Under the pieces are notes generated by a model that worked only from the letters and a program-made list of their open reading frames with translations, did no database searches and had not been told where the DNA came from. A DNA stretch of 64,000 nt from Chryseobacterium gleum. Its GTDB lineage: Bacteria > Bacteroidota > Bacteroidia > Flavobacteriales_F > PHOS-HE28. Shown piece by piece: positions 2,180 to 48,678 of the stretch (position 1 is its first letter; each line of letters opens with the position of its first letter). The DNA is taken from assembly GCA_945872795.1 (NCBI GenBank), contig CAMCAZ010000001.1, positions 56,085 to 120,084 on the forward strand, written 5' to 3'. A program made the translations under genes and the position numbers.

Positions 2180-3330
2180 CGGAAACGAAGGAGTTGTGTG
2201 CAGATGTGCTCAGCGGCACGGCCATCGCCAAAGAGCGGAGGACAAGGGGGAGCGCCATCGCGCAGGAAACGGTCCGCAGCGTCCCTGATCCACTCCGGTT
2301 CAGCATCGGCCAACACGGCCTGTCCACGCTCCACCAGTTCCACCCACTCGGTCTCGGGGCGCAGGATCACACATGGACGTCCCACGAAGTATGCTTCCTT
2401 CTGTACCCCTCCGCTATCCGTCAACACCAGGCGCGCATTGCTCTCCAGGGCGATCATATCGAGGAATCCGGCAGGTGGGATGAGATGCAGCCCCGGGGTC
2501 TGCAACAATGCCTGGCGTACCTCGGGTGACAAAAGGCTGTCCATCATCTTCCGGGTACGCGGGTGCAGGGGCAGCACCACGTCCAGGCCGTGCGCCCGGT
2601 GCAATTCGAGGAGCGCCCTGAAAATGGCGTTCAAGCGCTCGCCGACGTCCGTGTTGGCGTCACGGTGTACGGTGGCCAAGACGTATTCCTTCCCCTCCAG
2701 CCCCAAGTGGGCCAGCAGGGTGGAGCGCTCGGCCGCCCGTGTCGCGAAGTGGAGCGTGTTATCGAACATCACATCACCGCACTGCACCACGTGGGGATGA
2801 TCCATGGTCGGCGGATGGGAAACATCCGTACTGAAGCCTTCCCGGTGTAGGTTGTTCACTGCCGTGTCCGTCGGACAGAACAGCCAGGTGCTGCAGTGAT
2901 CGCAGACGATCCTGTTCAGCTCCTCCGGCATCCGTTTGTTGAAGGACCGGAGCCCAGCCTCGATGTGGGCCACCGGGACCTGCAGCTTGGAGGCCGCAAG
3001 GGCACCGGCCAGTGTGCTATTGGTATCGCCGTACAGCACCACCACATCATGTTCCCTGCGCAGCAGCACCTGCTCGATGCCTTCGATCATCCGTGCCGTG
3101 GTGGCCCCATGTTGGCCGCTACCTGTGTGCAGGTTGATGTCCGCTGCAGGGATGCCCAGCTCGTCGAAGAACACCTGGCTCATGTTGGCATCGTAGTGCT
3201 GGCCGGTGTGCAGCAGGGTCTCCTCGAGCTGCCCCTTGTACGGACCACGCACGGCTCGGCTCAGGGCGGCGGCCTTGATGATCTGCGGACGAGCGCCGAT
3301 GATGGTGAGGAGGCGGAGCGGTCGGTCCAT
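2176..3330 (-). CDS. wecB: UDP-N-acetylglucosamine 2-epimerase (non-hydrolysing)
   Basis: 384 aa; the N-terminus LLTIIGARPQIIKAAAL...HTGQHYD...MSQVFFDELGIP is typical of WecB/MnaA. ATG confirmed at 3330-3328. Confidence 0.9.
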   Translation of the reverse strand: MDRPLRLLTIIGARPQIIKAAALSRAVRGPYKGQLEETLLHTGQHYDANMSQVFFDELGIPAADINLHTGSGQHGATTARMIEGIEQVLLRREHDVVVLYGDTNSTLAGALAASKLQVPVAHIEAGLRSFNKRMPEELNRIVCDHCSTWLFCPTDTAVNNLHREGFSTDVSHPPTMDHPHVVQCGDVMFDNTLHFATRAAERSTLLAHLGLEGKEYVLATVHRDANTDVGERLNAIFRALLELHRAHGLDVVLPLHPRTRKMMDSLLSPEVRQALLQTPGLHLIPPAGFLDMIALESNARLVLTDSGGVQKEAYFVGRPCVILRPETEWVELVERGQAVLADAEPEWIRDAADRFLRDGAPPCPPLFGDGRAAEHICTQLLRFR

Positions 3331-4378: not shown

Positions 4379-4405
4379 GTCTTCTTGTGTTCCTTCCCCG
4401 GAAAG

Positions 4406-4419
4406 GGACGGCAAATATA
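4406..4419 (-). promoter_or_regulatory. Bacteroidetes-type sigma-A -7 element (TATATTTG) with conserved downstream CCGTCCC; predicted rpsT promoter
   Basis: The reverse complement of caaatata (4412-4419) is TATATTTG, matching the TAnnTTTG consensus. The 14-nt string aagggacggcaaat (4403-4416) is identical to the one upstream of tRNA-Glu (20153-20166). Confidence 0.5.
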
Positions 4420-4493: not shown

Positions 4494-5642
4494 TTAATAG
4501 GCCTTCTCGTCCTTTCCGAACATGTTGGTCACGGTCTTCACCACGATCTTGAGGTCAAGCCAGAACGACCAGTTCTCCAAGTACCACACGTCCAGTTCCA
4601 CGCGGCGCTCCATCAGTTCAGGGGTCTGGGTCTCGCCCCGCAGGCCGTTCACTTGGGCCCAGCCGGTGATACCGGGCCGGACGAAGTGGCGGACCATGTA
4701 CTTGTCGATGATATCCCGGTACTGCTCGTTGAGGCGAAGTGGGTGCGGACGGGGACCCACGATGCTCATGTGCCCGAACAGCACATTGAAGAACTGCGGC
4801 ATCTCGTCCAGGTTGCTCTTGCGCAGGAAGCGTCCCACGGCAGTGACGCGCGGGTCGTTCTTGGTGGCCTGCTTGGAATCGGCCTCCTTGTTCATGCGCA
4901 TGCTGCGGAACTTCCAGCAGACGAACTGCTCGTTGTCCTTGCCCAAACGGACCTGCTTGAAGAACACCGGGCCGCGGCCGGAAAGTTTGACCAGCAAAGC
5001 CAGGATGGGGAACAGCCAGGTGAAGATGAACAGGATGACACCCAGGGAGAAGGTCACGTCAAAAGCGCGCTTGATGCGACGGCTGGAGGTGCTGTCCAAG
5101 GGCTCCTGACGGATCATGCTGACCGGGACCGCCCCGTGGAACTCGAGGCCGGAGGTCTTGACCACCGGAATGAAGCTGTCGGCACTGGGAATGACCCGGA
5201 AGCGAACCGTGTTGCGCTCACAGAACTCCATCAGCTCGGTGATGTCGCTCCTTCGCGTACCGGGAAGGGCGCAGTACACAATGTCGATGTGGTTCTGGAT
5301 GGCATAGGCCTTGGCTGCCTCCACATCCCCGATTCGGCGTGCGTTCAGCGGACCATCGATGGGGGTGTCGTTGAACACACCGCAGAAACGGTAGCCACGC
5401 ACGGTCTGGTCCTCACAATACTGGAAGATCTCCTCCGCGGCAGGACCATCACCCACGATGATGAGGTCCTTGACCGAGGTCAACGGCTCTAATGTCAATA
5501 CTTTGTTCAATCCGGTCTGCACGTTCTGGAAGGACATTCGTCCCGAGCGAAGCAAGGTAGAAAGTTCCGCGTTGAGTTCCGCACCGACCGCCGCCTTGCT
5601 CGGCATCCCCACTCCGGGTTCTGCGATGATGGTCCTCTCCAT
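4494..5642 (-). CDS. undecaprenyl-phosphate sugar phosphotransferase (bacterial sugar transferase / WbaP-CpsE-like; initiating transferase)
   Basis: C-terminal catalytic domain ...RFLRKSNLDEMPQFFNVLFGHMSIVGPRPHPL...PGITGWAQVNG; one TM segment; N-terminal Rossmann-like part (DLIIVGDGPAAEEI). The track start at 5708 is GTG; an ATG (MERTII) is confirmed at 5642-5640. Confidence 0.8.
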   Translation of the reverse strand: MERTIIAEPGVGMPSKAAVGAELNAELSTLLRSGRMSFQNVQTGLNKVLTLEPLTSVKDLIIVGDGPAAEEIFQYCEDQTVRGYRFCGVFNDTPIDGPLNARRIGDVEAAKAYAIQNHIDIVYCALPGTRRSDITELMEFCERNTVRFRVIPSADSFIPVVKTSGLEFHGAVPVSMIRQEPLDSTSSRRIKRAFDVTFSLGVILFIFTWLFPILALLVKLSGRGPVFFKQVRLGKDNEQFVCWKFRSMRMNKEADSKQATKNDPRVTAVGRFLRKSNLDEMPQFFNVLFGHMSIVGPRPHPLRLNEQYRDIIDKYMVRHFVRPGITGWAQVNGLRGETQTPELMERRVELDVWYLENWSFWLDLKIVVKTVTNMFGKDEKAY

Positions 5643-5888
5643 GGTGAAGGGTACGGTTGGTTTCCAATGACCTCTTTTTCGAGGAGGCTCAAATGTACCC
5701 TCGACCACCCTGAAATGTCAAGCTCGTCGATAAATATTAATGTTCCATCGACATTTTTCCTCCTTGAACCGACCATCGATGAGGTCATGGCGAGGAGGAT
5801 ACATCGCCCTTATCTGTTCATTTTCAGACCGTTAGGCATTCCAACCACCGGTCACCTGCTGATGATCGACGACGATCCGACGAAATGC

Positions 5889-6677
5889 TCACTTCACATC
5901 GGCTTGACGCTTGTCGAACAGCCGGCGGAAAACCTCGGCCGCCAGGAGAACGAGGAACTGCGTGTTCGTTACCAGGTAACGTCTCCAAAGGCGACGAGGC
6001 TCGAGCACGAAACGGTAAAGCCATTCCAAGGAAAGGTCGCGCATCCATCGGGGCGCCCGGGTGTCCACCCCGGCATAGAGCAGGAACGCACCCCCCAAAC
6101 CGAGCATCACCCCGTTCACACGTCCCTTCATGGCCGCCATCCAGCGCTCCTGCTTGGGGCAGCCCAGGGAGACCATGACGATCTGTGCGCCTGCGGCATT
6201 GATCCGTGCGGCCTCTGCATTCATGTCCAAACCGGACAGTGGGCCGAAGGGAGGTGCATGGGAGCCTGCGAAGTGGAGGGTCGGCCACTCGCGTGCAGCC
6301 CGGTCCCTGATCTTCTGCAGGGTATCCTCCGAACCGCCGTAGAGGAACACGCTCAGGCCTTGGGATGCCGCGCGTTCGAGCAGGGCAGGCAGGAGGTCGT
6401 TACCGGCCACACGCTGCTGCTTCACCTTGTGGAACCACTGGAGGACCTTCAGCACGGGCATGCCATCCGCAGTGGCCAGGTCGGCCGCGTTCACCACCGC
6501 TGCGAAGCCAGGATCCCGGCATTCCACGGTCATGTGGGCGTTCACGCAACAGACGTAGCTGGAACGGTGGGCCTGTGCTGCCTGTGCGATCGCTTCCACA
6601 TGTTCCGTGAAGGAACCCACGCTGATGTCCACGGTGAGCACTCTTCGCTTGGGCAACTGGCTGACCGAGCTGCTCAT
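5889..6677 (-). CDS. WecB/TagA/CpsF-family glycosyltransferase (N-acetylmannosaminyltransferase-like, GT26)
   Basis: 262 aa; ...VNAHMTVEC...ADGMPVLKVLQWF...LYGGSEDTLQ...VSLGCPKQERWM... is a typical GT26 pattern. The ATG at 6677 overlaps the epimerase stop (ATGA). Confidence 0.85.
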   Translation of the reverse strand: MSSSVSQLPKRRVLTVDISVGSFTEHVEAIAQAAQAHRSSYVCCVNAHMTVECRDPGFAAVVNAADLATADGMPVLKVLQWFHKVKQQRVAGNDLLPALLERAASQGLSVFLYGGSEDTLQKIRDRAAREWPTLHFAGSHAPPFGPLSGLDMNAEAARINAAGAQIVMVSLGCPKQERWMAAMKGRVNGVMLGLGGAFLLYAGVDTRAPRWMRDLSLEWLYRFVLEPRRLWRRYLVTNTQFLVLLAAEVFRRLFDKRQADVK

Positions 6678-7693
6678 GGGCCGGCCTTCTTGGGGAGACG
6701 GACATCAATGCGCGTCGGTGCCACGATCCGCTCGCTGCCACTGTCGTACCACTTGACCATCGCCTTCACACCGGCCTCGATGGACCAGGGCGCTTCGCCC
6801 AATGCGGCGATGGTGCCTTCCATCGGCGTGATGTAATCGCTGGTCATGCTGCGGAAACGGCCGCTGGTGATGGGGAACGGGATGCCGAGGGCCTTGAGCA
6901 CATCGCCGCCCCGGGCCACCGCACGGATGAGCGTCGTGGGGATGTAGCGCACGGCCCGACCGGTGAGCTCCTTGGAGACCGCCTCCACCCACACCTTCAG
7001 GTCGAACGGACGGTCGCCGACATAAAAGACCTTGCCGTCCACCACGCTGCGGGGAACCTCCAACATGCGTTCGATCTGCCAGACCACATTGCCCACATAG
7101 CCGTAGGAGCGGACCACACGCCCCTTTCCAGGATGAACATACAGGCCCTTGCGCATCACCTTGAACAGCACGTCGCGGTAGCGCAGTGACCAGGGGCCCC
7201 AGATGGTGGTGGGCCGGATGATCGTCCAGCTGCACGGCAGTCCGGCCTCACGCGTGACCATCTCCGTGCGGCGCTTGGATTCGCCGTAGACCGTGAACGG
7301 CTTGAAGTCCAAATCGTGTCTGGGCTGGTATCCCGCTTCACAAACGAACTGGGTGCTGGTGACCACGATGCGCTCCACTCCGGGACTGTTCTTCACCACT
7401 TCCAACAGGATGCGGGTACCCTCGTGGTTCTGTCGGTAGGCGTCCACATCCACCGGTTCGTCGGTATCCGTCCGTGCAGCGAGGTGCACCACGTGCGTGG
7501 GCTTGAATTCATCGAAGACCTTTTGCATTGCCGGTCCGTCCATGATGTCCACCTCTTTCCACCACTTGCGCTGCCCCGGATCCAGCGGAGGGTTCCAATC
7601 CAGATTGATCAGCTCCACGCCTTTGGCAGCCATGTGCTCCATGAAGTTGGTCCCGATGAACCCGGAACCACCAGTGACCAGTACACGCATCAT
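6674..7693 (-). CDS. NAD-dependent epimerase/dehydratase (SDR, extended)
   Basis: MMRVLVTGGSGFIGTNF... GxxGxxG Rossmann motif. The track start at 7699 is TTG; the ATG at 7693 sits 3 nt after the GT stop. Confidence 0.85.
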   Translation of the reverse strand: MMRVLVTGGSGFIGTNFMEHMAAKGVELINLDWNPPLDPGQRKWWKEVDIMDGPAMQKVFDEFKPTHVVHLAARTDTDEPVDVDAYRQNHEGTRILLEVVKNSPGVERIVVTSTQFVCEAGYQPRHDLDFKPFTVYGESKRRTEMVTREAGLPCSWTIIRPTTIWGPWSLRYRDVLFKVMRKGLYVHPGKGRVVRSYGYVGNVVWQIERMLEVPRSVVDGKVFYVGDRPFDLKVWVEAVSKELTGRAVRYIPTTLIRAVARGGDVLKALGIPFPITSGRFRSMTSDYITPMEGTIAALGEAPWSIEAGVKAMVKWYDSGSERIVAPTRIDVRLPKKAGP

Positions 7694-7695
7694 GC

Positions 7696-8823
7696 TCAAC
7701 GCTCTTCAGATATGCCCACGAGCTCGCGCTCCATGGATCGATGGAACGCTTCCAACGTAAAATCCCGCACAAAGATGCGCCTCCCCTCCTCCCCCATCCG
7801 CCGGCGCAAGGAGGCGTCCATGGCCAAGGCCCGGAGCTTGCCGGCCACAGCTTGGGGGTCTCGGATCGGGACCAGGAATCCATTGACGCCATCGGCCACC
7901 ACCGAAGGAATGCCCCTCCACAGGGTGCTGACCACGGGTTTGGCGAACTGCATGGCCTCGACCAACACGAGCCCGAAGCTCTCCGCCTCGAAGTAGGACG
8001 GGAAGCAAAAGATGTCGCAGGCTGCGAAATGCCTGAATTTCTCCAGGTCCTGCTTGACACCCAGGAAGGAGACCCGATCGGCAAGCCCCTGCCGGACCAC
8101 ACGTTCCCTGCATTCCGTCTCGAAGGACGCATCGCCCCATTTACCCATCAGCTCCAGCCGGGCATCGACGCCCTGACCGCATAACAACGCGAAAGCATCC
8201 AACAGGTCACGGACACCTTTGGAAGGAATGAGCACACCGGTGAAGAGGATGACCAGGGGCTCCCCGGGCCGTGCGATCCGTTCCTCCACCCGGCCCCGCA
8301 TATCAGGAATTCCGTTGGGAACCACCACATCGCGCCGGGCACCCAGCACCCGTCCGTCCTCAGGGTTCTGTGGCGCTGTGCGTATCGCCAGTGCCGGACG
8401 CCCATAGGCATAGCGGAACAGCGGTCGCAACGGTGCAGGCAACTGTGCAGCGTAGGATGAAACACCACCGGCATGGAAGTGAAAGACCGTCTTCCTGAAC
8501 AACCAACGGGTGGAGCAGAGCAGGACGATATCGCGCAGCACAGGGACCTTGTTGGGCCCGCTGGGAGGATAGTAGAGCACCGGTGTGTTGTGCCGGAACC
8601 GGGCCCACCAGATGCGCAGGATGGTGGTGAAGAGCACCCAGACCTTGCGCAACGCGAATTTGCCCACGCTCTCCATATCCTCCGAAAAGGCCATGCGCAC
8701 ATGGAACAGGCGCACACGCTCAGACCTCAACTCCAGAAGCACGGCGATCATCACGGCCTGGCCTCCATGGGGCGGCGGCGTTTGACCGACCACCAGAATG
8801 CGATGAGGAGAAGTGATCTGCAC
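7696..8823 (-). CDS. glycosyltransferase family 4 (GT-B, Glycos_transf_1)
   Basis: 375 aa; C-terminal ...EAMQFAKPVVSTLWRGIPSVVADGVNGFLVP... matches the EX7E-type GT4 motif. GTG start. Confidence 0.85.
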   Translation of the reverse strand: MQITSPHRILVVGQTPPPHGGQAVMIAVLLELRSERVRLFHVRMAFSEDMESVGKFALRKVWVLFTTILRIWWARFRHNTPVLYYPPSGPNKVPVLRDIVLLCSTRWLFRKTVFHFHAGGVSSYAAQLPAPLRPLFRYAYGRPALAIRTAPQNPEDGRVLGARRDVVVPNGIPDMRGRVEERIARPGEPLVILFTGVLIPSKGVRDLLDAFALLCGQGVDARLELMGKWGDASFETECRERVVRQGLADRVSFLGVKQDLEKFRHFAACDIFCFPSYFEAESFGLVLVEAMQFAKPVVSTLWRGIPSVVADGVNGFLVPIRDPQAVAGKLRALAMDASLRRRMGEEGRRIFVRDFTLEAFHRSMERELVGISEER

Positions 8824-8991
8824 ACGGCAAAAGTATCCCGGCGATCAGGCGGGATGTGCGATGCCCAGCACACGCATCAACAGTGGAGCGTGCATCGTCT
8901 GCGCTGTGCGGCCGAAGTTCCGTCGACAAGATCGGTGCATTCGTCGTAAAAATGGAACCGTGGCAGCCAAGAGCGAGTTGAACCGCATCCA

Positions 8992-11736
8992 ATGCCATTG
9001 AAAATGAGCAGGAAACTACACGTGGGATTCGCAGTGCTTTTCACCTGGTCCACCATTTCGGCCCTTGCCACCACCTATTACATCTCTCCCACGGGCAGCG
9101 ATGCCAATAGTGGGACCTCACAGGCCCAGGCCTGGCAGACCATCGGTCGCCTGATGCAGAGCATCTATTCGCTGCAGGCCGGTGACGCCATCCGCTTTGA
9201 GCGCGGCGGCACCTACCGGGGCGAGTTCATCATTCCGAGCTCGGGCACCAGCAGCCAGAAGATCCAAGTGGGCGCCTATGGATCGGGACCACTGCCGGTG
9301 ATCAGTGGCAGTGATGCCGTGAGCGGCTGGACCCAGCAGAGCGGAAACATCTGGCGCTCCAACGTGGCGGGCACCGTGAAGTACGTATTCGTGAACGGTG
9401 AGCTGATGACCCTGGCCCGGTTCCCCAACACCGGTTGGTTGCGCAACGACCAAGGCAGTGGCACCCAGATACAGGACAGTGAGCTGACCCAGGCGAACGG
9501 GTATTGGAACGGAGCCACCGCAGTGATCCGCAGTTCGAACTGGAGCTACGACGCCGTCACGGTCTCCAACCATGCCAACGGCAGCATCACCTTCCCCAAC
9601 ATCTACTTCAACCTGTCCAACTACGAATGGGGATACTTCCTCTGCAACAAGCTCAGCGAGCTGGACAGCCCCGGTGAGTGGTTCCACGATGCGGCCAATG
9701 GCCACCTGTACCTCTGGGCACCGAACAATGCCGACCCGAACACGCTGAACGTGGAGGCCGCTGTGCGCGAAAAGGGTGTCACCGTCTTCTGGCAGCGGCA
9801 GCACGTGCAGATCAGCGACCTGGTCTTCCAGCACCAGCGGGTGTGTGGCGTGCGGAACGATGGTGCAGCATACGTGGACATCACCGGATGCACCTTCCGG
9901 GAGCTGTATCAGGGCATCAGCAGCTACGGAAACAACAATCTCTACACGAACAACCGCTTCGAGGACACCTTCGCCACCGGCGCGCACCTGATCGACAACA
10001 ATAGCACGTTCGAGGACAACACCATGGAGCGCATCGCCATGAAAGCAGGCCTGGGCGAGAGCAACTGGGGTTATTTCGGGCTGCGCCTGAACGGTACCGG
10101 CAATGTGATCCGCTCCAATCGACTGGAGGACATCGGGTACATCGGCATCGGTATGGACCAGAACTGCCTGGTGGAACGGAACGTGGTGCGCAACGCCACG
10201 GCCCTGCTGAACGATGGTGGGGGCATAGCCTTTGACAATGCAGATGGCATGATCATCCAGGACAACATCGTCGTGGACATCATCGGCGATCTGGAGAGCT
10301 CCGCACCGGACTTCGAGAACTACGAACTGATCTCGCATGGCATCTATTTCGGGAACACCACCATCCGCAACACCATCGTGCGGCGCAACACTGTGGCCCA
10401 CTGCATGGGAAGCGGCATCCATGTGGACCACACGATGGTCTCCACCGGGAACCAGATCACGGACAATGTGCTCTTCAACAACCAGATCCAGCTGAGCGTT
10501 TCGGACTATTCGAACTACAACGGACCGGGCGCCACACCACCCTACCATGTGCCGTCCTTCAACGGGACCTACACCGGGAACACCCTGTACTGCATGACGC
10601 GCGACCAGTTGTGCATGAAGCAGTACAACGTGCATTCACCGAACGTCGTCGACTTCGGGGTGTTCAACAACAACCGCTACTTCAACCCCTACAACGAGCT
10701 GAGCATCTTCGTGCACAACACGAACTCGGGGACGCAAAAGCGCTACACACTGGAGCAGTGGCGCACTGAACGGACGGAGGACCCCAACTCCACCCGGAGC
10801 CCACTGCGCCTGGAGGCCTTCGAAGTGCTGGACGAACTGAGCGCAAACCTCATCGACAACGGAACGTTCAGTTCGAACGTGGCCGGCTGGGGTGGCTGGC
10901 CCACCCAGGGTCAATTGACACGCGACGCCACCCTTCTCGACAACGGTGCCCTGAAGGTCCTGTTCAACAACAACGCATCGTACCCGGAATTCATCCTGCG
11001 GCACGATGCCATGACCGGCATCCAAAGCGGATCCCACTACCAACTGAGCTTCAGCACACAATCCACCATGCCGGGCACCTTGAAGGTGGAACTGAAAGGC
11101 CAGACCCAGATGTCCGGGCCCAACGTCGTGTACAAGAGGAACGTGCCCTTCAGCAGCGAGCGGCGCGAGGTTTCCATGATCTTCCAGAGCGACCTCACCG
11201 ACCAGGCCGTCTGCCGGTTCACCAACCACTACACCGAAAGCACCTACTGGCTGGACAATGTGGAGCTGAAGCGGGTGACCGTCCTTGCGCTGGACCCGCA
11301 CGACCGCCACATCCTGCTCATCAATGAGGAGGCCTCATCGCAGACCCTGTCGCTGACCGGTTGCTGGCGCGATGTGCATGGTACGATCCATAGCGGAAGC
11401 ATTGACCTTGCTGCGTACGGCTCGGTGGTGCTCACCAAGGAGGATGATGCGACATGCTCCATGACCACCGGCATCAACGATGTTGCGACCTCATCGTGGA
11501 GCGTGTTCCCCAACCCTGCCCAGGCCGGAGCGCACCTGAACCTCGGCCAACTGAACGGTGCATCGGCCATGGTCCGGATGTTTGACCTGAACGGCCGCCA
11601 GGTATTGGAGGAACGTATCCCCGCCGGTATGGATATCCTGCAACTTCCCGCATCCCTCGCCAGCGGCATGTACAACCTGGCCCTGGAGCGGAATGGCGAT
11701 GCAGTGCACAACACCCGTCTGATCGTGACCCAATAG
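8992..11736 (+). CDS. T9SS-secreted right-handed parallel beta-helix protein with a CBM4_9-like domain (candidate polysaccharide lyase/hydrolase)
   Basis: 914 aa; signal peptide; repeated PbH1-like turns (NNRFED..., DNIVVD..., GIYFGNTTIRNTIVRRN). Central NGTFSSNVAGWGGW... looks like a carbohydrate-binding module. The C-terminal ~80 aa (SVFPNPAQAGAHLNL...GMYNLALERNGDAVHNTRLIVTQ) is a type-A T9SS sorting domain. It is convergent to the surrounding polysaccharide operon. Confidence 0.75.
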   Translation: MPLKMSRKLHVGFAVLFTWSTISALATTYYISPTGSDANSGTSQAQAWQTIGRLMQSIYSLQAGDAIRFERGGTYRGEFIIPSSGTSSQKIQVGAYGSGPLPVISGSDAVSGWTQQSGNIWRSNVAGTVKYVFVNGELMTLARFPNTGWLRNDQGSGTQIQDSELTQANGYWNGATAVIRSSNWSYDAVTVSNHANGSITFPNIYFNLSNYEWGYFLCNKLSELDSPGEWFHDAANGHLYLWAPNNADPNTLNVEAAVREKGVTVFWQRQHVQISDLVFQHQRVCGVRNDGAAYVDITGCTFRELYQGISSYGNNNLYTNNRFEDTFATGAHLIDNNSTFEDNTMERIAMKAGLGESNWGYFGLRLNGTGNVIRSNRLEDIGYIGIGMDQNCLVERNVVRNATALLNDGGGIAFDNADGMIIQDNIVVDIIGDLESSAPDFENYELISHGIYFGNTTIRNTIVRRNTVAHCMGSGIHVDHTMVSTGNQITDNVLFNNQIQLSVSDYSNYNGPGATPPYHVPSFNGTYTGNTLYCMTRDQLCMKQYNVHSPNVVDFGVFNNNRYFNPYNELSIFVHNTNSGTQKRYTLEQWRTERTEDPNSTRSPLRLEAFEVLDELSANLIDNGTFSSNVAGWGGWPTQGQLTRDATLLDNGALKVLFNNNASYPEFILRHDAMTGIQSGSHYQLSFSTQSTMPGTLKVELKGQTQMSGPNVVYKRNVPFSSERREVSMIFQSDLTDQAVCRFTNHYTESTYWLDNVELKRVTVLALDPHDRHILLINEEASSQTLSLTGCWRDVHGTIHSGSIDLAAYGSVVLTKEDDATCSMTTGINDVATSSWSVFPNPAQAGAHLNLGQLNGASAMVRMFDLNGRQVLEERIPAGMDILQLPASLASGMYNLALERNGDAVHNTRLIVTQ

Positions 11737-11827
11737 ACCGTCACGTCCGCCTCAGCCCTTTGGTTGAGCCCACCATAAAGCACATCATCTCCGCGTTCAC
11801 GGCCGACAACTGTGCGCCGTCCGGTCT

Positions 11828-13126
11828 TCAGGAGAGGAATTCACCGCTCAACGCGCGCTTCCGGCGGGTGATGTACTTGGGGTCGATGGCCGCCATCGAG
11901 AGCATGGTGAAGAAGATGGGATTACCGAGGTCGATACCATAGCAGAAGATGTCGATCTGCCAGATGAACATCAGGTAGACGATACCCGCGAACAACGGCG
12001 CCTCGAGGGTGGTGGCCAGGTAGTGCTTGCGGTAGTAACTGAAGCCGTACCACACACACAGGTAGAACAGCACTAGTCCGATCACTCCCTGGTCCATGGT
12101 GATCTCCAGGAAGGAACTGTGCAGGTGAAAATTGAAGGAGTGCTCCTCCCCCCATAACACGGCCAGGAAGTCGAGCATACGCAGCTCGTACTGGCCCCTG
12201 TAACCCAGCCCGAAGAGCCAACCCGTCCGGTCGTGCATCGCCCAATCGGCCATCGAGTTCCAGATGTAGGTGCGACCGTTGAAGGTGGTGACATCCTCTT
12301 TATCCACCCGCTGCAGAATGGCCACGAAGAAGGGAAGTGAGAGGATCTGGTAGATGAGCAGCGCGAAGCTCATCATCAGGGGCATGGTGAAGAGGGAGAT
12401 GGTGTAGAGGCCCCGGATCACCTTCATGAACTTGAAGACGAACAGGGCCAGCAGCACCACGAAGATCATGAAGGACAGCCGGCTGTTGATGTTCATCATC
12501 ACCGCCATGTTCAACAGGAACAGTGCTCCCACGAGCAGGAACTGCAGCGGCTTGCGTGTGAAGTCGCGGAGGTAGAAGATGAGCATCAGGTTGACCACCG
12601 ACATGACGTGCGACGCGTCGTAGATGCCGCGCATGAACGGCAGGTTGATGCGTCCCTCAAAGCCATGGACCAGGTTGCGCAGGCCTGCAGCGTAACCCAC
12701 CAGGTTCAAGAGGATGAAGAAGGCGAGCCCCCTGAACAGCAACCAGGCAAAATCGAAGCGGTCATTGGCCCGATTGTAAACCTGCACCACCACCGCTGCA
12801 TTGAAGGGCACCAGGAACATGACGCTCATGGACGTGGTGTTCACCGGATTGAGGCCGGGGAAGTTCTTGCCGTAGGCCACCCACATGCTGGCGACCAGCG
12901 AGGTGATGAAGAGCATGCCCACGGCATAGACCCTGTTCACCATCGGGGTCACGCGACCCCGGTAAAGCAGGTCGATCCCGTAGATCAGCAGGATCAGGAT
13001 GAAGGGCAACACGGACAGGATGACGCCCGCACTGAAATTGGTCTTGAACGTCACATAGGTGCCCAGCCCGTAGAACGGGAAGCCGAGCAGGAACAGGGTG
13101 TTGACGAGCTTGATCTTGGAGATCAC
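11828..13126 (-). CDS. O-antigen polymerase/ligase-like (Wzy-type) polytopic membrane protein
   Basis: 432 aa with about 10-12 predicted TM helices and a periplasmic loop region typical of the Wzy_C / O-antigen ligase family. GTG start. Confidence 0.6.
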   Translation of the reverse strand: MISKIKLVNTLFLLGFPFYGLGTYVTFKTNFSAGVILSVLPFILILLIYGIDLLYRGRVTPMVNRVYAVGMLFITSLVASMWVAYGKNFPGLNPVNTTSMSVMFLVPFNAAVVVQVYNRANDRFDFAWLLFRGLAFFILLNLVGYAAGLRNLVHGFEGRINLPFMRGIYDASHVMSVVNLMLIFYLRDFTRKPLQFLLVGALFLLNMAVMMNINSRLSFMIFVVLLALFVFKFMKVIRGLYTISLFTMPLMMSFALLIYQILSLPFFVAILQRVDKEDVTTFNGRTYIWNSMADWAMHDRTGWLFGLGYRGQYELRMLDFLAVLWGEEHSFNFHLHSSFLEITMDQGVIGLVLFYLCVWYGFSYYRKHYLATTLEAPLFAGIVYLMFIWQIDIFCYGIDLGNPIFFTMLSMAAIDPKYITRRKRALSGEFLS

Positions 13127-13166: not shown

Positions 13167-14162
13167 CTAGTTGATGCCCAACTGTTTCTGGATCTTCGAG
13201 AAGAACGGGGTCACCGCCTCATCCACGGAGGAGGGCAGCAGGTTCTTGATGACGTTCTTGAACTTCCGGAACGAGGTGGGTTCGATGTAACGCTCGAAGT
13301 AGGCCATGTCCCGTTCCGCATCCACCAACATGTGCCAGGGGTGCACCAGAGGGAAGGCGGTCTCGTACAGATCGTCCTTGTTCCGGCGGTCCTTCTCGCT
13401 CACGGTGTGCGTTCCCTCGGCGCCGAAGCCGATGTTCCGGATCATGTTCGTGTTCGGAATGCACGTCACGCCGTGGTTCAGGATCCGCGCGAGGTCCATC
13501 TGATAGTCCCAAGAGCGGATGGTGCCCTCGTACTGGGCCTGGAACAACTTGTATGCCTCCTTCATCTCCGCCTTCGACAGGAACTGGCCTGTGAGCAGGC
13601 CGGAGTCACAGGCCGCAGGCCAGGCCTTCATCTGCACGTCGTACTTCTTCCACACCCTGCGCCAGCCGGCCCAGCCCCAATAGGCGCCGTAACCGTGTGC
13701 CGAGAAATAGTAGGAGTCCGGCCCCTTCACCGACCATTCGGTCATCAGGTTGTTGCCCATGATGCACCAAACACGATCGTCGTCGCGGTAGCGTTCCAGC
13801 AAGGCCTCACAGTACCAGAAGAAGCTCTGTGATGGATAGGTATCATCCTCCAGCACGATGCCCTCCTCCTCCTTCTCCCAGAACCAGTCCATGGCGGTGC
13901 TTTCGCCCATCATCACCCCCAGGTTCACATCACTGAACTTGGTGTGCAGTTCACACTCCCAATCCACCAGTTCCACCAGGGAACGCACCCGCTCGCAGCG
14001 CTGGCGCTCGCCTTCGTTCCGCGGTCCGTCGCAGGCGAAATAGAGCCGCGGTGGGCGTGCCTCGCGGATGGCCTCCATGACCTGGCGGGCGCTGTCGTAG
14101 CGATTGAATGCAATGAACAGGACCGGCGTACGGAGCGGAGCGGTCGGCGTAAAGGAGCTCAT
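13167..14162 (-). CDS. GT-A-fold nucleotide-diphospho-sugar transferase-like protein (HlpA-like family)
   Basis: N-terminus PVLFIAFNRYDSARQVMEAIREARPPRLYFACDGPR resembles a family I recall from Bacteroides capsule loci, annotated as glycosyltransferase or hemolytic protein HlpA-like. No TM segment. ATG at 14162. Confidence 0.45.
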   Translation of the reverse strand: MSSFTPTAPLRTPVLFIAFNRYDSARQVMEAIREARPPRLYFACDGPRNEGERQRCERVRSLVELVDWECELHTKFSDVNLGVMMGESTAMDWFWEKEEEGIVLEDDTYPSQSFFWYCEALLERYRDDDRVWCIMGNNLMTEWSVKGPDSYYFSAHGYGAYWGWAGWRRVWKKYDVQMKAWPAACDSGLLTGQFLSKAEMKEAYKLFQAQYEGTIRSWDYQMDLARILNHGVTCIPNTNMIRNIGFGAEGTHTVSEKDRRNKDDLYETAFPLVHPWHMLVDAERDMAYFERYIEPTSFRKFKNVIKNLLPSSVDEAVTPFFSKIQKQLGIN

Positions 14163-14167
14163 GACGA

Positions 14168-15421
14168 TCAGAAGATGTTCTCGCGGTTATCCCGATGATA
14201 GACCGCAAAATCCTTGAACATGGAAATGGTGTGTCGCGCGATGGTCGATGGAGAAACGAACTCATCCACGAAGCGGTAGAGGAACAGTTGCATGCGGTCG
14301 CTGTATCTAACGGAAACGTCCTGGACGATGTTACCATAACGATCATACGGCAGCACCTCGACACATCCGGCCGCATGGGCCGTGGGCAGCAACATGTTGC
14401 TGCCGTGCACACCGATCACGACCTGGCTCCGTGCATACGCCGCGCACCACGCCAGTTCGGTGGCCTTGTCCATGCGCTGTGTCCTCAGGTCATCCACATC
14501 GGGACCGAATCCACCTTTGTCACCAAGACCTACCACGGTGAAGCGGACACCGGGCAGCCGGGCGGAGATGCGGTCCATACTACCGCGGATGAGCCGATCC
14601 TGGGCATGGACATACCAGCGCCCCAGGCTCTTCTTAAGTCCGAACTTATTGAGGACCCGGTAGAGGAATTTAGCGGCCGGGGTGGCGAACCACAACCGAT
14701 CCTGGCGGGCTACGAAAGTGACGTGCGGCGGGCGCTGCAGGAACTCCTCCATCGGAAAAGGCCGCACTCCCGTGAAGCGCTCGATATCGATGTCCGCGAA
14801 CTCGGGGTGCGCGTACCCACGCCCCACGTACACCTCCTCGTAGTTGGGCAGTTGCTGCTGCACGAAGCGGTCGATGGCCGTATACCAGCCATGGGCCTCA
14901 CCCAATCGCTGATCCACCAACCATACTTCAGCCACCCCTTTGGGGACCAGCCATTGGAACATGCGGGGCAGCACGATCACCAACCCCAGATCCGGATGCT
15001 TGTCGATGTAATGCTGGGCGTTGTACAGCTTCAACAATACATGACCGTAGAGGAAATCCAGCGTATTGAGTATGACCACCCGCTCACAGGCGCGATGGAC
15101 GATCCGCTCCACCTTCACCTCCTGGTCCGAAGGCGCCCGATAGCCGTCCATGAGCGGCTTGTGGATCCATGCTTCTCCGTTCGTCGGGTTGTGCAACCTG
15201 CCATCGGCCGTGCCGATGGCCATGGGGTGGTCCACGGAAAAGCCCACGGGCAGATCACGCAGAAAGGCATACCCACATCCCTGGCAACGGTGGCGTCCCA
15301 ACACATGAACTCCCGGCCAGATGGAGCCTTGGTGATCCAACTCCCGTCCACCACACGAAGGGCAGCCGAAGTCGGCGAAGGGCTCCGGCAGAAGGGGAAC
15401 AAGATGGGGGTCCTTCACCAT
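14168..15421 (-). CDS. GT-B-like (GT9/heptosyltransferase-like motif) protein with N-terminal C4 zinc ribbon
   Basis: N-terminus CPSCGG...x17...CQGCGY is a zinc ribbon. The C-terminal region VVGLGDKGGFGPDVD...VVIGVHGSNMLLPTAHAAGCVEVLP resembles the GT9 GNDSGPMHLAAA motif. The ATG at 15421 immediately follows the Wzx stop (TGAccATG); the track start at 15553 would overlap wzx by 130 nt. Confidence 0.4.
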   Translation of the reverse strand: MVKDPHLVPLLPEPFADFGCPSCGGRELDHQGSIWPGVHVLGRHRCQGCGYAFLRDLPVGFSVDHPMAIGTADGRLHNPTNGEAWIHKPLMDGYRAPSDQEVKVERIVHRACERVVILNTLDFLYGHVLLKLYNAQHYIDKHPDLGLVIVLPRMFQWLVPKGVAEVWLVDQRLGEAHGWYTAIDRFVQQQLPNYEEVYVGRGYAHPEFADIDIERFTGVRPFPMEEFLQRPPHVTFVARQDRLWFATPAAKFLYRVLNKFGLKKSLGRWYVHAQDRLIRGSMDRISARLPGVRFTVVGLGDKGGFGPDVDDLRTQRMDKATELAWCAAYARSQVVIGVHGSNMLLPTAHAAGCVEVLPYDRYGNIVQDVSVRYSDRMQLFLYRFVDEFVSPSTIARHTISMFKDFAVYHRDNRENIF

Positions 15422-15423
15422 GG

Positions 15424-16743
15424 TCAAACGGCCCGATGGAACTTCCAGAACGAGATGATCCCTGTGCACATCCATTTCAGATTCGCGCGGGTGCTCTTGA
15501 ACAGCAGGTCCATCAGGAAGATGCTGATCGTGAACGAGCCGATGGTGGCCCATATCGCGCCGACCGACTTGAACGGAGGGATCAGCAAATAGTTCATCCC
15601 GATGTTGACCGCCGCACCCACGACCCCGGTGAGGAGCGAGTACTTGAACAGGCTCTCATTGGTGATGAAGCTGGACTTGCCCACACCCATGTTGGTGAAG
15701 AACAAGCGGATGGCGAACAGGGAAAGCAGGACACCGGACGGACGGAAGGCCTCACCGAAGAGGAGCACCATCAAGGGTTCAGCCAGGAAGTACAGGGGGA
15801 TGGCCGTGACCAGGAACATCAGGAACATCAGGCGGTACTGGTTCAACAGACGGTCCTCATACTGTCCGTTGCCGAGGGCCTTCGCCCGGGTGATGGCGGG
15901 GGCCAGGGACTTCTGCACGATGACCGGCAGGAACCCCAGTGCCTCGATCATTTTCAAGGCATTGGAGTACTGACCCACTTCGGCATTGGCCGCCTCGGCA
16001 CCCAGTCGCGTCCGTAGCATGTCGCCGATCATGACCTGATCGATCTTGGCCTGCACATATAGGGCCATGCCGAAGATGATCAAGGGCCAGGATTGCCGCA
16101 TCAGGTAACCAGCCTCCTTGCGATCATACTTCCAGGAGCGCCAGCTGTGGCCGCCCCGCTCGTAGGCGATCACATAACCGACGGAAAGCGTCAAGGTCTC
16201 CAGCACGTAGACCCAGGCGAACCAGAGCAGTGGTGCCCCGAAATAGACCAGACCGATCTTGAACAAGGCACTGACGACGACCTGCACCATCTGCACCACC
16301 ACCGTTTGCTTGGAGCGGACCTCGGCCATGAAATACCAATCCACCACACCGAAGGGTCGGAGGAGCTCCGCCGCCGCGATGACCACCACGAGGGAGGCGG
16401 TGAGGCCGTCCATGTCCTTGAAAAGACTGGACAAGAGCACAAGTATCACGAGCAGCAAGGACCCCAGGAACTTGATGACGGCCGCGGTTCCCAGCAGGGC
16501 ATCCCTTCGCTCCGGATGTTTCACCAGGTCGCGCACCACGATCTCATCGAGGCCCATGGTGGTGAGGGCGAAAAAGATGCCCACAAAGCCTGTGGCGTAG
16601 TTGAGCTGACCGAACAGGGAAGGCCCGAGGTAGCGCGCCACCAGGATGCCCGTACCCAGAACGACCACCAGACGTACGACCCGCTCGACCAGGAGCCACG
16701 AGGTATTGGCGAAATACCTGCGAAAGCCCTCCGATCGGATCAT
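15424..16743 (-). CDS. wzx: oligosaccharide flippase (MOP superfamily, Wzx-like polysaccharide biosynthesis protein)
   Basis: 439 aa, about 12 TM helices, N-terminal ...LLVERVVRLVVVLGTGILVARYLGP... is typical of Wzx/RfbX. ATG at 16743. Confidence 0.8.
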   Translation of the reverse strand: MIRSEGFRRYFANTSWLLVERVVRLVVVLGTGILVARYLGPSLFGQLNYATGFVGIFFALTTMGLDEIVVRDLVKHPERRDALLGTAAVIKFLGSLLLVILVLLSSLFKDMDGLTASLVVVIAAAELLRPFGVVDWYFMAEVRSKQTVVVQMVQVVVSALFKIGLVYFGAPLLWFAWVYVLETLTLSVGYVIAYERGGHSWRSWKYDRKEAGYLMRQSWPLIIFGMALYVQAKIDQVMIGDMLRTRLGAEAANAEVGQYSNALKMIEALGFLPVIVQKSLAPAITRAKALGNGQYEDRLLNQYRLMFLMFLVTAIPLYFLAEPLMVLLFGEAFRPSGVLLSLFAIRLFFTNMGVGKSSFITNESLFKYSLLTGVVGAAVNIGMNYLLIPPFKSVGAIWATIGSFTISIFLMDLLFKSTRANLKWMCTGIISFWKFHRAV

Positions 16744-19892: not shown

Positions 19893-20004
19893 ATTAAGGT
19901 CAGACCTGTTGGGGTACACTGCAGTACACCGACCGCTCGGCGAACGTTCAAGACACAACCGGTCCAGGTCAAATATACGTTCGACCCTCAGCCCGGGTTA
20001 CGCC

Positions 20005-48632: not shown

Positions 48633-48678
48633 ACTCATGAGAACGCCACACTTCTCCAGCCCGCGCATGATCGGCAGC

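What the first reader, a model, noticed from the sequence alone, without database searches (positions are those of the whole stretch)
8992..11736. Convergently oriented, T9SS-exported beta-helix + CBM protein embedded inside the polysaccharide operon
This is the only plus-strand gene within about 20 kb of minus-strand glycan genes. It encodes a 914-aa right-handed beta-helix enzyme fold (PbH1-like turns), a CBM4_9-like module (NGTFSSNVAGWGGW...) and a type-A T9SS sorting tail. By analogy to PelA, PslG and AlgL, which are glycan-processing enzymes encoded within biosynthetic loci, this could be the dedicated depolymerase or modifier of the exopolysaccharide. Unlike those, it would be delivered by T9SS and probably anchored on the cell surface.
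Basis: partly seen in the sequence, partly recalled or inferred. Interest (0 to 1): 0.5.

Follow-up and report, generated by a model that had tools for sequence, protein, structure and literature searches.

The report
Secreted beta-helix enzyme inside capsule locus
An uncultured Flavobacteriales bacterium keeps one gene for a secreted, sugar-binding beta-helix protein wedged backwards inside its exopolysaccharide-synthesis gene cluster; it most likely trims or remodels that polymer outside the cell, a known strategy seen here in a new, uncharacterised protein family.

Summary
Window 8992-11736 (+) is a real 914-aa gene (dN/dS 0.07 against a 97% orthologue). It has a signal peptide, a beta-helix with an inserted beta-sandwich, a CBM4/16-like sandwich and a T9SS type A tail. 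It is the only plus-strand gene among about 15 minus-strand genes (1004-22370), most of them forming a Wzx/Wzy/Wzc/Wza polysaccharide locus.

The link to the locus is strong. In 42 of 43 testable orthologous contigs (47-97% identity) the gene sits in the same place and orientation, between the GT4 gene and wzy. A roughly 1066-aa paralogue without the tail never does (0 of 24 upstream, 0 of 32 downstream). Starting instead from a neighbouring locus gene, 3 of 4 loci carry it.

The closest solved fold is GH141 BT_1002, but similarity is below family thresholds. The equivalent of the BT_1002 nucleophile (D408) is conserved. The acid/base position appears to be Gly-Asn, and a new Asp/His set appears nearby.

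My best reading (about 0.45) is a T9SS-exported glycanase specific for the cell's own EPS, analogous to WceF or RbmB. A lectin-like surface anchor, or a lyase or epimerase, remain possible. It is a new variant of a known kind, of moderate interest.

The parts
8992..11736 (+). Whole gene: 914-aa secreted beta-helix / CBM-like / T9SS-CTD protein ('type A' family). The likely true start is Met5 at 9004.
   Evidence: ORF and translation; homologues; dN/dS 0.07; AF2 model pLDDT 92.3.
8992..9069 (+). Residues 1-26: Sec-type signal peptide (basic SRK, a hydrophobic stretch, then ALA before TTYY).
   Evidence: By inspection of the translation. Helix 7-22 has low pLDDT in the model. This segment is poorly conserved (0.19). 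No signal-peptide predictor was available.
9070..9366 (+). Residues 27-125: N-terminal cap and first coils of the beta-helix.
   Evidence: Sequence similarity to the N-terminus of GH136 lacto-N-biosidases, E 1e-9 to 1e-18.
9367..9771 (+). Residues 126-260: beta-sandwich inserted into the helix, like the GH141 insertion domain.
   Evidence: Pfam GH141_M at residues 202-242, 21.9 bits, below the cut-off of 27. The profile hit to BT_1002 5mqp covers this region. The BT1002 topology is described in PMC10154630.
9772..10791 (+). Residues 261-600: right-handed parallel beta-helix with an Asn ladder and the putative active-site coils (conservation peaks at residues 391-420 and 451-510).
10213..10215 (+). 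Codon of Asp408 in the motif LNDGGGI, the equivalent of the BT_1002 putative nucleophile D523 (motif MYDVAGIY).
   Evidence: hhalign alignment. Asp in 129 of 136 distant homologues. D523 was located in fragmented BT1002 orthologues using PMC10154630.
10792..11289 (+). Residues 601-766: CBM4/CBM16/CBM22-like beta-sandwich (NGTFSSNVAGWGGWP ... YWLDNVEL).
   Evidence: Foldseek hits to CBM4, CBM16 and CBM22, target TM 0.64-0.75. Weak profile hit to the 4qpw/4mgs modules, E 0.11. PF02018 is present in some orthologues but gives no hit in this sequence.
11290..11502 (+). Residues 767-837: small beta domain and a flexible linker (825-833, pLDDT below 50).
   Evidence: AF2 secondary structure and confidence.
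11503..11733 (+). Residues 838-914: T9SS type A C-terminal sorting domain.
   Evidence: TIGR04183 29.0 bits against a cut-off of 23 on the isolated domain. Pfam PF18962 25.5 bits against 27. The orthologue P0003 scores 38.7 bits.
8824..8991 (.). 168-bp divergent intergenic region shared with the GT4 gene; presumed promoter region for both directions.
   Evidence: Sequence. Near-identical in L008. No sigma-70-type promoter was found, as expected for Bacteroidota. A regulatory role is inferred only.
7696..8823 (-). GT4 glycosyltransferase, the divergent upstream neighbour.
   Evidence: PF00534/PF13692; conserved neighbour.
11828..13126 (-). Wzy-type polymerase (Wzy_C domain, polytopic membrane protein), the convergent downstream neighbour.
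   Evidence: PF04932; about 10-12 hydrophobic segments; conserved neighbour.
13167..14162 (-). Conserved 331-aa soluble protein with no Pfam hit; NCBI names its homologues 'nucleotide-diphospho-sugar transferase'.
14168..15553 (-). Conserved soluble protein with no Pfam or NCBIfam family. Homologues are called at 415-439 aa, so the true start is probably downstream of 15553.
15424..16743 (-). Wzx flippase.
   Evidence: PF01943/PF13440; NF041871.
16759..19104 (-). Wzc-type polysaccharide co-polymerase / tyrosine kinase.
   Evidence: Wzz, GNVR and AAA_31 domains.
19104..19958 (-). Wza-type outer-membrane polysaccharide export protein.
   Evidence: Poly_export and SLBB domains.
6674..7699 (-). 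NAD-dependent sugar epimerase/dehydratase.
   Evidence: PF01370.
5889..6677 (-). GT26 WecG/TagA/CpsF-family glycosyltransferase.
   Evidence: PF03808; TIGR00696.
4494..5708 (-). Initiating polyprenyl-phosphate sugar phosphotransferase (WcaJ-like).
   Evidence: PF02397. TIGR03023 404.9 bits against a cut-off of 410.75; TIGR03025 370 bits against 295.55.
2176..3330 (-). UDP-GlcNAc 2-epimerase.
   Evidence: PF02350, E 1e-100.

Best explanation
The gene encodes an extracellular glycan-processing enzyme dedicated to the polysaccharide made by the surrounding Wzx/Wzy/Wzc/Wza locus.

Proposed course of events:
1. It is transcribed divergently from the GT4 gene and the genes downstream of it, from a shared 168-bp intergenic region. 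Co-regulation is inferred, not shown.
2. The precursor crosses the inner membrane through Sec. This is by inspection of the signal peptide.
3. The type A C-terminal domain directs it through the type IX secretion system. The domain is shown here; the route follows from established T9SS knowledge.
4. After removal of that domain, the protein is either released or covalently attached to a surface glycolipid. This step is not predictable from sequence.
5. Outside the cell, the CBM4-like sandwich holds the exported polymer. The groove of the GH141-like beta-helix, around Asp408, Asp415, Asn455, Asp479-His480 and Asp505, cleaves glycosidic bonds. This would shorten, loosen or release the capsule/EPS, as WceF does for stewartan and RbmB does for Vibrio polysaccharide. 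The mechanism is inferred.
For: Locus membership:
- Among contigs carrying orthologues at 47-97% identity, 42 of 43 have a minus-strand GT4 or epimerase gene within 1.5 kb upstream. Also 42 of 43 have a minus-strand wzy within 7 kb downstream, 29 of them within 600 nt.
- The CTD-less paralogue scores 0 of 24 upstream and 0 of 32 downstream.
- A reciprocal search found the gene in 3 of 4 orthologous loci.
- In distant loci the gene diverges at the pace of wzy: median identity 52% against 50% for wzy. GT4, the epimerase, the initiating transferase and Wza stay at 70-78%. This fits specificity for the repeat unit.

Enzyme-type fold:
- The top Foldseek hit is GH141 BT_1002, E 2e-20.
- Other hits are capsule lyases, phage depolymerases, RbmB, GH120 and GH136.

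Active site:
- D408 aligns with the BT_1002 nucleophile motif and is Asp in 129 of 136 remote homologues.
- Conservation peaks on the coils that carry D408/D415 and N455/D479/H480/D505.

Export:
- The C-terminal domain passes the TIGR04183 cut-off.
- T9SS genes and other T9SS cargo lie in the same window.
- Invariant cysteines fit an extracytoplasmic protein.

Precedent: WceF is a beta-helix hydrolase encoded in a Wzx/Wzy locus, and its loss lengthens stewartan chains (PMC7949094).
Against: - No activity data exist for any member of the family.
- The position equivalent to the BT_1002 acid/base D564 is Gly454-Asn455 here. Many remote relatives carry Asp at 454 or 455. An Asp-to-Asn change is the classic inactivating substitution.
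- That equivalence rests on motif and Asn-ladder register. hhalign did not extend that far.
- I could not obtain model coordinates, so I could not check that the conserved acidic residues cluster in space.
- One orthologous locus (L096) lacks the gene, so it is not essential for synthesis.
Confidence: 0.45

Rival explanations
1. It is a lectin-like, non-catalytic or barely catalytic surface protein. T9SS attaches it to the cell surface, and its beta-helix groove and CBM bind the cell's own EPS. It would tether the capsule or cross-link the matrix rather than degrade it.
For: - The acid/base-equivalent position appears to be Gly-Asn, whereas relatives have Asp there.
- The protein carries a CBM-like module and a type A CTD, the class of cargo that can be covalently surface-anchored.
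- WceF itself shows lectin-like aggregation with stewartan and slow cleavage (PMC7949094).
Against: - D408 is retained, along with a block of invariant polar residues (D415, D479, H480, D505, E356) exactly on the catalytic coils.
- The best fold matches are enzymes.
- The family-specific 'DHT' insertion looks like a replacement catalytic element.
Confidence: 0.22
2. It is a polymer-level modifying enzyme or lyase, a C5-epimerase or beta-eliminating lyase of the AlgE/AlgG/PL6/RbmB type. It would act on uronic-acid residues of the exported EPS.
For: - An invariant Asp-His pair (D479-H480) could serve base catalysis.
- The second carboxylate of the GH141 hydrolase pair appears to be lost.
Against: - Sequence-level relatives are glycoside hydrolases (GH141, GH136, GH120). 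Lyases match only in the N-terminal cap.
- The helix contains no AlgG-type DPHD motif. The DPHD string at residues 768-771 lies after the CBM, and only D768 and P769 are conserved.
- No UDP-sugar 6-dehydrogenase was found among the genes of the roughly 21-kb locus, so a uronic-acid substrate is not indicated.
Confidence: 0.15
3. It is an ordinary secreted CAZyme for feeding on foreign polysaccharides, and it sits in the locus by accident.
For: GH141-like enzymes and T9SS-secreted CAZymes with CBMs are common in Bacteroidota for nutrient acquisition (general knowledge; GH141 roles in PMC10154630).
Against: - Position and orientation are kept across 47-97% identity while the flanks change.
- No SusC/SusD or other PUL genes lie nearby.
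- The paralogue that lies outside the locus is a distinct subfamily.
Confidence: 0.05

Closest known systems
WceF of Pantoea stewartii (stewartan locus)
   Same: It is a right-handed beta-helix protein encoded inside a Wzx/Wzy/Wzc-type EPS biosynthesis cluster. It is exported from the cytoplasm and acts on the cluster's own polymer. Loss of WceF lengthens chains, and it also behaves like a lectin (PMC7949094).
   Different: - WceF is a tailspike-like trimer with a Tat signal, no CBM and no T9SS tail.
- No sequence relationship to it was detected here.
- The present protein is GH141-like, with an inserted sandwich, a CBM4-like module and a type A CTD, and it comes from Bacteroidota.
GH141 glycoside hydrolase BT_1002 (PDB 5mqp) of Bacteroides thetaiotaomicron
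   Same: - It is the best overall structural match. The topology is the same: N-terminal cap, inserted beta-sandwich, beta-helix (PMC10154630).
- There are weak but consistent sequence hits to the insertion domain.
- The nucleophile motif D-x-x-G-I is shared, D408 with D523.
   Different: - Identity is only 14-19%, and the Pfam GH141_M score is below its cut-off.
- The acid/base D564 equivalent appears to be Gly-Asn.
- BT_1002 is a PUL-encoded enzyme of rhamnogalacturonan-II breakdown, not an enzyme of a biosynthetic locus.
RbmB of Vibrio cholerae (PDB 9ozd)
   Different: - RbmB is a smaller lyase (366 residues in the structure) with no CBM and no T9SS.
- There is no detectable sequence similarity.
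- Whether the present protein is a lyase is unresolved.
PslG, PelA, AlgL and BcsZ (glycanases encoded in EPS operons)
   Different: - The folds differ (TIM-barrel or alpha/alpha-barrel).
- Those enzymes are largely periplasmic and belong to synthase-dependent pathways.
- The present protein is a beta-helix exported to the outside by T9SS, in a Wzx/Wzy pathway.
PDB 9rx2, 'Parallel beta-helix repeat protein' (717 aa)
   Same: It is the solved structure with the longest sequence-level match beyond the N-terminal cap: profile E 3.5e-16 over residues 17-385, and it includes the shared L-x-D-G-x-G-I motif.
   Different: No publication on it was found in the library, so its function is unknown to me. 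It has no CBM or CTD equivalents in the match.

Membership tests
CAZy GH141 (founder BT_1002) | Family-level sequence similarity (Pfam GH141_M at or above the gathering score of 27 bits; significant alignment across the catalytic helix). | tested here: not met
   GH141_M scores 21.9 bits, below 27. The profile hit to 5mqp (E 2e-9) is confined to the insertion domain. Structural identity is 14-19%.
CAZy GH141 (founder BT_1002) | Fold and topology: N-terminal cap, inserted beta-sandwich, right-handed beta-helix. | tested here: met
CAZy GH141 (founder BT_1002) | Putative nucleophile Asp (D523). | tested here: met
   hhalign pairs LNDGGGIA with MYDVAGIY. D408 is invariant in the family and is Asp in 129 of 136 remote homologues. 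D523 was located with fragmented BT_1002 orthologues and PMC10154630.
CAZy GH141 (founder BT_1002) | General acid/base Asp (D564, motif LYTDEG). | tested here: inconclusive
   By motif and Asn-ladder register, D564 falls on G454/N455 of GIYFGN. Remote relatives have Asp at 454 (56 of 136) or 455 (40 of 136). hhalign stopped before this coil, and no structural superposition was available. The result leans towards 'not met'.
T9SS type A cargo | C-terminal type A sorting domain (TIGR04183 / PF18962). | tested here: met
   TIGR04183 scores 29.0 bits against a cut-off of 23 on residues 817-914. PF18962 scores 25.5 against 27 on the whole protein. The model shows a confident beta-sandwich at 838-913.
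T9SS type A cargo | N-terminal Sec signal peptide. | tested here: inconclusive
   Inspection shows a basic n-region, a hydrophobic helix at 7-22 and an ALA motif before T27. No dedicated predictor was available, and a coarse hydropathy scan at threshold 1.6 did not flag the segment.
T9SS type A cargo | T9SS machinery encoded in the same genome. | tested here: met
   PorP/SprF at 57154-58086. A SprB-like 2874-aa protein with a CHU_C signal at 48517-57141. Another type A CTD protein at 28858-30225. The core genes (SprA, PorU/V, GldKLMN) lie outside the window and were not seen.
T9SS type A cargo | Actual secretion, CTD cleavage and surface attachment. | not testable with these tools
   This needs proteomics or fractionation of a carrier strain.
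CBM4_9-type carbohydrate-binding module | Pfam PF02018 match. | tested here: not met
   Residues 601-836 give no hit at E<=10. Some orthologues (P0004, P0032, P0034) carry precomputed PF02018 hits.
CBM4_9-type carbohydrate-binding module | Beta-sandwich fold of the CBM4/16/22 group. | tested here: met
   Foldseek hits to CBM4, CBM16 and CBM22 structures, target TM 0.64-0.75, E 1e-5 to 1e-7. Invariant residues include W633, W636 and the D755-N756 motif.
CBM4_9-type carbohydrate-binding module | Binding of a glycan. | not testable with these tools
   This needs binding assays.
EPS-locus-encoded self-glycanase (functional class: WceF, RbmB, PslG, ...) | Gene conserved within the biosynthetic locus. 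| tested here: met
   42 of 43 upstream and 42 of 43 downstream. Reciprocal search, 3 of 4 loci.
EPS-locus-encoded self-glycanase (functional class: WceF, RbmB, PslG, ...) | Activity on the cognate polymer, and a phenotype on chain length or dispersal. | not testable with these tools
   No cultured carrier and no biochemical data are available.
Wzx/Wzy-dependent polysaccharide pathway (the host locus) | Presence of an initiating phosphoglycosyltransferase, a Wzx flippase, a Wzy polymerase, a Wzc co-polymerase/kinase and a Wza exporter. | tested here: met
   Pfam and NCBIfam hits for all five. The Wzy_C protein is the only additional polytopic protein.
AlgG/AlgE mannuronan C5-epimerases | Catalytic DPHD / YG(F/I)DPH(D/E) motif in the beta-helix. 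| tested here: not met

The most novel reading that the evidence does not exclude
This family (and its CTD-less paralogue) may be a new catalytic class built on the GH141-like scaffold. In it, the usual second carboxylate has been replaced by a relocated Asp415 / Asp479-His480 set. T9SS would place it on the cell surface as a post-export 'sculptor' that sets the length or release of a lineage-wide capsule. Extracellular, surface-anchored control of capsule length has not been described for Bacteroidota. A further, weaker possibility is that the polymer of this locus is itself linked to T9SS cargo anchoring.
Probability: 0.15. Interest if true: 0.6.

Novelty: new variant of a known kind. Interest (0 to 1): 0.4.

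Why it matters
Enzymes that bacteria keep inside their own exopolysaccharide loci control chain length, matrix viscosity and dispersal. They are also sought as biofilm-dissolving tools.

All characterised examples come from Proteobacteria or Firmicutes, and they reach the periplasm or the medium by Sec, Tat or type I/II routes. This gene offers a well-defined candidate for the same role in Bacteroidota, delivered by T9SS. The carriers are uncultured Flavobacteriales recovered from, among other samples, an activated-sludge metagenome (L093), a setting where EPS governs floc formation.

The gene also marks a large uncharacterised beta-helix superfamily: 1,569 clusters at E<=1e-30. Its active site differs from that of GH141, so it may deserve its own CAZy family.

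Tried and rejected
1. The genome-contig scan was run with the single protein instead of the alignment. It returned only 6 loci. The metagenome scan with alignment A1 made up for this.

2. I tried to fetch full-length BT_1002 relatives with a 124-aa fragment taken from the PDB alignment. Only fragments of 217 aa or less came back. I worked around this by translating frameshifted BT_1002 orthologues from two contigs.

3. hhalign of the family against that fragment reached only 34% probability and stopped before the acid/base coil. The D564 equivalence therefore rests on motif and Asn-ladder register.

4. Model coordinates are not exposed, so I could not test whether D408, D415, N455, D479, H480 and D505 cluster in space.

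5. A literature search for PDB entry 9rx2 found nothing. Searches for T9SS-delivered EPS depolymerases in Flavobacteria found no prior description. The WcaM/AmsF search returned mostly noise.

6. The promoter and terminator scan of 8600-12000 found nothing beyond chance. Bacteroidota promoters are not covered by that tool.

8. Considered and rejected:
   - AlgG-type epimerase membership. There is no motif in the helix, and the DPHD string at 768-771 is a coincidence outside it.
   - A nutritional PUL enzyme. There are no SusC/SusD genes and the synteny is fixed.
   - The antisense ORF 9118-10635 as a gene. It has no family hit, and the third-position substitution pattern fits the plus frame.
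Full report
**1. The observation**

The window holds an uninterrupted ORF at 8992-11736 on the plus strand, 914 codons. It is a real gene. A word-indexed search found 560 homologues, and the best 120 are nearly all full-length proteins of about 910 aa at 49-97% identity. Where named, they come from Flavobacteriales or Bacteroidetes metagenome-assembled genomes. Against the 97%-identical orthologue L008 (Flavobacteriales bacterium JTS-AC70), 104 of 135 nucleotide differences are at third codon positions and dN/dS is 0.07. The 505-aa antisense ORF inside it (9118-10635) has no family hit. I take it to be a by-product of the roughly 60% G+C content. Met5 is nearly invariant in the alignment, so translation probably starts at 9004.

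**2. The surroundings**

Every other supported gene from 1004 to 22370 lies on the minus strand. In order they are:
- an alpha/alpha-toroid protein
- UDP-GlcNAc 2-epimerase
- RadC
- ribosomal protein S20
- a WcaJ-like initiating phosphotransferase
- a GT26 WecG/TagA-family transferase
- an NAD-dependent epimerase
- a GT4 transferase
- [the plus-strand gene]
- a Wzy_C polymerase
- two conserved soluble proteins without a Pfam family
- Wzx
- Wzc
- Wza
- a 284-aa ORF with no family hit
- prolyl-tRNA synthetase

It is not a pure glycan operon, because housekeeping genes are embedded in it.

**3. Anatomy of the protein**

AlphaFold2 with a 60-sequence alignment gave a confident model, pLDDT 92.3 and pTM 0.83. 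The segments are:
- a signal-peptide-like helix (residues 1-26)
- an N-terminal cap (27-125)
- a beta-sandwich inserted into the helix (126-260)
- the right-handed beta-helix proper (261-600)
- a beta-sandwich (601-766)
- a small beta domain and a disordered linker (767-837)
- a C-terminal beta-sandwich (838-914)

Pfam sees Beta_helix (E 1e-16). It also sees Por_Secre_tail at 25.5 bits against a cut-off of 27, and the GH141 insertion domain at 21.9 bits against 27. The isolated tail passes the NCBIfam type A sorting-domain model at 29.0 bits against 23. The sandwich at 601-766 gets no CBM_4_9 hit by HMM. It does superposes on CBM4, CBM16 and CBM22 structures with target TM 0.64-0.75, and some orthologues do score PF02018. 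The same window encodes PorP/SprF, a SprB-like giant protein with a type B signal, and another type A cargo protein. The organism therefore has a T9SS.

**4. Is it tied to the locus?**

I collected 93 loci around homologues and located the window's neighbours in them by tblastn. Two subfamilies separate cleanly.

'Type A' proteins are about 905-920 aa and align through the tail. Among contigs with enough flank, 42 of 43 have the GT4 or epimerase gene on the opposite strand within 1.5 kb upstream. Also 42 of 43 have wzy on the opposite strand within 7 kb downstream, 29 of them within 600 nt. The counts are not de-duplicated, and a few contigs are repeats.

'Type B' proteins are about 1066 aa, and their match ends near residue 820. 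No sorting domain is recognised in them. They are never next to any locus gene: 0 of 24 upstream and 0 of 32 downstream.

The arrangement survives a change of flanks. In L006 a different set of genes lies beyond the epimerase.

For a reciprocal check I searched with the neighbouring 331-aa protein and opened five contigs.
- One (L097) held an isolated paralogue outside any EPS locus.
- Of the four orthologous loci, L099 and L100 carry an opposite-strand gene of about 916-919 aa at the same site. This rests on size and position, plus a Beta_helix hit in L100 only; tblastn was not run on these two.
- L098 carries the gene in three frameshifted pieces.
- L096 lacks it and has an unrelated 322-aa gene there.

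That last genome has a type B copy elsewhere (L007). Another genome has both types (L100 and L081). The gene is therefore a frequent, positionally fixed member of the locus, but not an obligatory one.

Two further observations fit a role tied to the repeat unit. First, in distant loci the protein has diverged as far as Wzy: median identity is 52% against 50%. GT4, the epimerase, the initiating transferase and Wza stay at 70-78%. Second, the slot between its 3' end and wzy is where extra genes appear, up to 5.5 kb, including a GT2 and a hexapeptide acyltransferase.

**5. What kind of beta-helix?**

By sequence, the only significant PDB hits are to the N-terminal cap of GH136 lacto-N-biosidases, to the uncharacterised 9rx2, and to the insertion domain of GH141 BT_1002.

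By structure, Foldseek ranks BT_1002 first (E 2e-20). After it come GH120 XylC, the K1 capsule lyase, phage capsule depolymerases and GH136.

So the scaffold is GH141-like, but the fold alone does not tell hydrolase from lyase or epimerase.

An exhaustive HMMER scan with residues 25-600 found 13,844 relatives, 1,569 of them at E<=1e-30. They occur in architectures from about 700 to over 4,000 aa. This is a large uncharacterised superfamily.

**6. Catalytic residues**

BT_1002 uses D523 (putative nucleophile) and D564 (acid/base) (PMC10154630). I recovered the C-terminal sequence of close BT_1002 orthologues from two frameshifted genes and anchored the numbering with the PDB alignment. D523 lies in MYDVAGIY and D564 in LYTDEG.

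hhalign pairs LNDGGGIA of this family with MYDVAGIY. D408 is invariant in the family and is Asp in 129 of 136 relatives at 26-59% identity. It is the only acidic residue of the helix conserved at 75% or more.

By motif and Asn-ladder register, the D564 position falls on G454/N455 of the invariant GIYFGN. The remote clade has GIYLD[D/N], so the acid is kept there. Many intermediate relatives have GIYFGD. This family has Asn, together with a clade-specific Asp415 (IAFD) and an inserted Asp479-His480-Thr.

Conservation among orthologues peaks exactly on these coils, residues 391-420 and 451-510.

I read this as a remodelled, still functional site. A natural Asp-to-Asn change is also what a binding-only pseudo-enzyme would show, and I could not check the three-dimensional clustering of these residues.

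**7. Mechanism proposed**

- Shown: the locus link, the enzyme-type fold, the nucleophile-equivalent Asp, the CBM-like fold, the T9SS tail, and T9SS genes in the genome.
- Inferred: Sec export; T9SS translocation with tail removal; release or surface attachment; binding of the exported polymer by the sandwich; and cleavage in the helix groove. The effect would be to trim chain length or loosen the capsule.

The closest functional precedent is WceF of Pantoea stewartii. It is a beta-helix hydrolase encoded in the stewartan Wzx/Wzy cluster, its loss lengthens chains, and it also aggregates with its substrate (PMC7949094). RbmB of Vibrio cholerae is a second precedent.

I rate this explanation at about 0.45. 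The rivals are a lectin-like surface tether (0.22), a lyase or epimerase (0.15) and an unrelated feeding enzyme (0.05).

**8. Comparison and novelty**

The idea of a self-directed glycanase kept in an EPS locus is well known. Several things differ here:
- the delivery route (T9SS type A cargo)
- the scaffold (GH141-like with an inserted sandwich and a CBM4-like module, below every family threshold)
- the altered catalytic centre
- the host lineage (uncultured, high-G+C Flavobacteriales)

I found no prior description in the searchable literature. I class it as a new variant of a known kind. A specialist would not be surprised by the logic, but the family is a clean, testable candidate. Interest 0.4.

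Noticed in passing
L007 10001-13204 (P0116); also L016, L043, L044, L050, L052-L059, L062-L068, L070-L081 and others: A paralogous 'type B' family of about 1066 aa shares the cap, helix and CBM-like parts at 47-61% identity. It ends in about 240 different residues with no recognised sorting domain or Pfam/NCBIfam hit, and it is never in the EPS locus. At least one genome (GCA_009612815.1: L100 and L081) has both types.
   Followed up: partly
Between the gene's 3' end and wzy: window 11737-11827; L005 12796-14155; L096, L099 and L100 about 11300-12670; L049 (5.5 kb): This convergent junction is a variable slot. Many relatives carry 1.3-5.5 kb of extra genes here, often a GT2 plus a hexapeptide acyltransferase. 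This suggests lineage-specific decoration of the repeat unit next to the two fastest-evolving genes.
   Followed up: partly
L096 13123-14091 (GCA_047601855.1): One orthologous locus lacks the beta-helix gene. At the same place it has a 322-aa gene of unknown function on the same strand as the glycan genes.
   Followed up: no
window 1004-2179 (-): A 391-aa alpha/alpha-toroid protein has weak hits to GH88, GH127, GH76, prenyltransferase/squalene cyclase and, in orthologues, the ulvan lyase N domain. It is conserved at the edge of the locus next to UDP-GlcNAc 2-epimerase, and could be a second glycan-processing enzyme. No obvious signal peptide.
   Followed up: partly
window 13167-14162 (-) and 14168-15553 (-): Two soluble proteins are conserved in most orthologous loci but have no Pfam or NCBIfam family. 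The 331-aa protein has 2,444 homologues, some named 'nucleotide-diphospho-sugar transferase', and also occurs alone outside EPS loci (L097). The annotated start of the second overlaps wzx and is probably too far upstream.
   Followed up: partly
window 3333-4064 (-) and 4124-4414 (-): radC and rpsT (ribosomal protein S20) sit in the middle of the glycan locus, between the 2-epimerase and the initiating transferase. The same is seen in most relatives down to about 50% identity.
   Followed up: no
window 48517-57141 (+) and 57154-58086 (+): A 2874-aa SprB-repeat protein with a CHU_C (type B) T9SS signal is followed directly by a PorP/SprF gene. This is the usual pairing of a gliding adhesin with its outer-membrane partner.
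   Followed up: partly
window 28858-30225 (+): A second T9SS type A cargo protein (455 aa, Por_Secre_tail 36.5 bits) has no recognisable N-terminal domain.
   Followed up: no
window 9118-10635 (-): A 505-aa antisense ORF lies inside the beta-helix gene. It has no family hit, and the substitution pattern supports the plus frame. It is a spurious ORF of a high-G+C genome.
   Followed up: yes
window residues 768-771 of the protein (nt 11293-11304): The string DPHD, identical to the AlgG epimerase catalytic motif, occurs after the CBM-like domain rather than in the helix. Only D768 and P769 are conserved. It is a coincidence that could mislead motif searches.
   Followed up: yes
L001 and L002 1-2004: In the 73% relatives, the locus is extended beyond the toroid protein by an AMP-binding enzyme, a carrier protein and an acetyltransferase. 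These could acylate the polymer. The corresponding region lies at or beyond the left end of the window.
   Followed up: no
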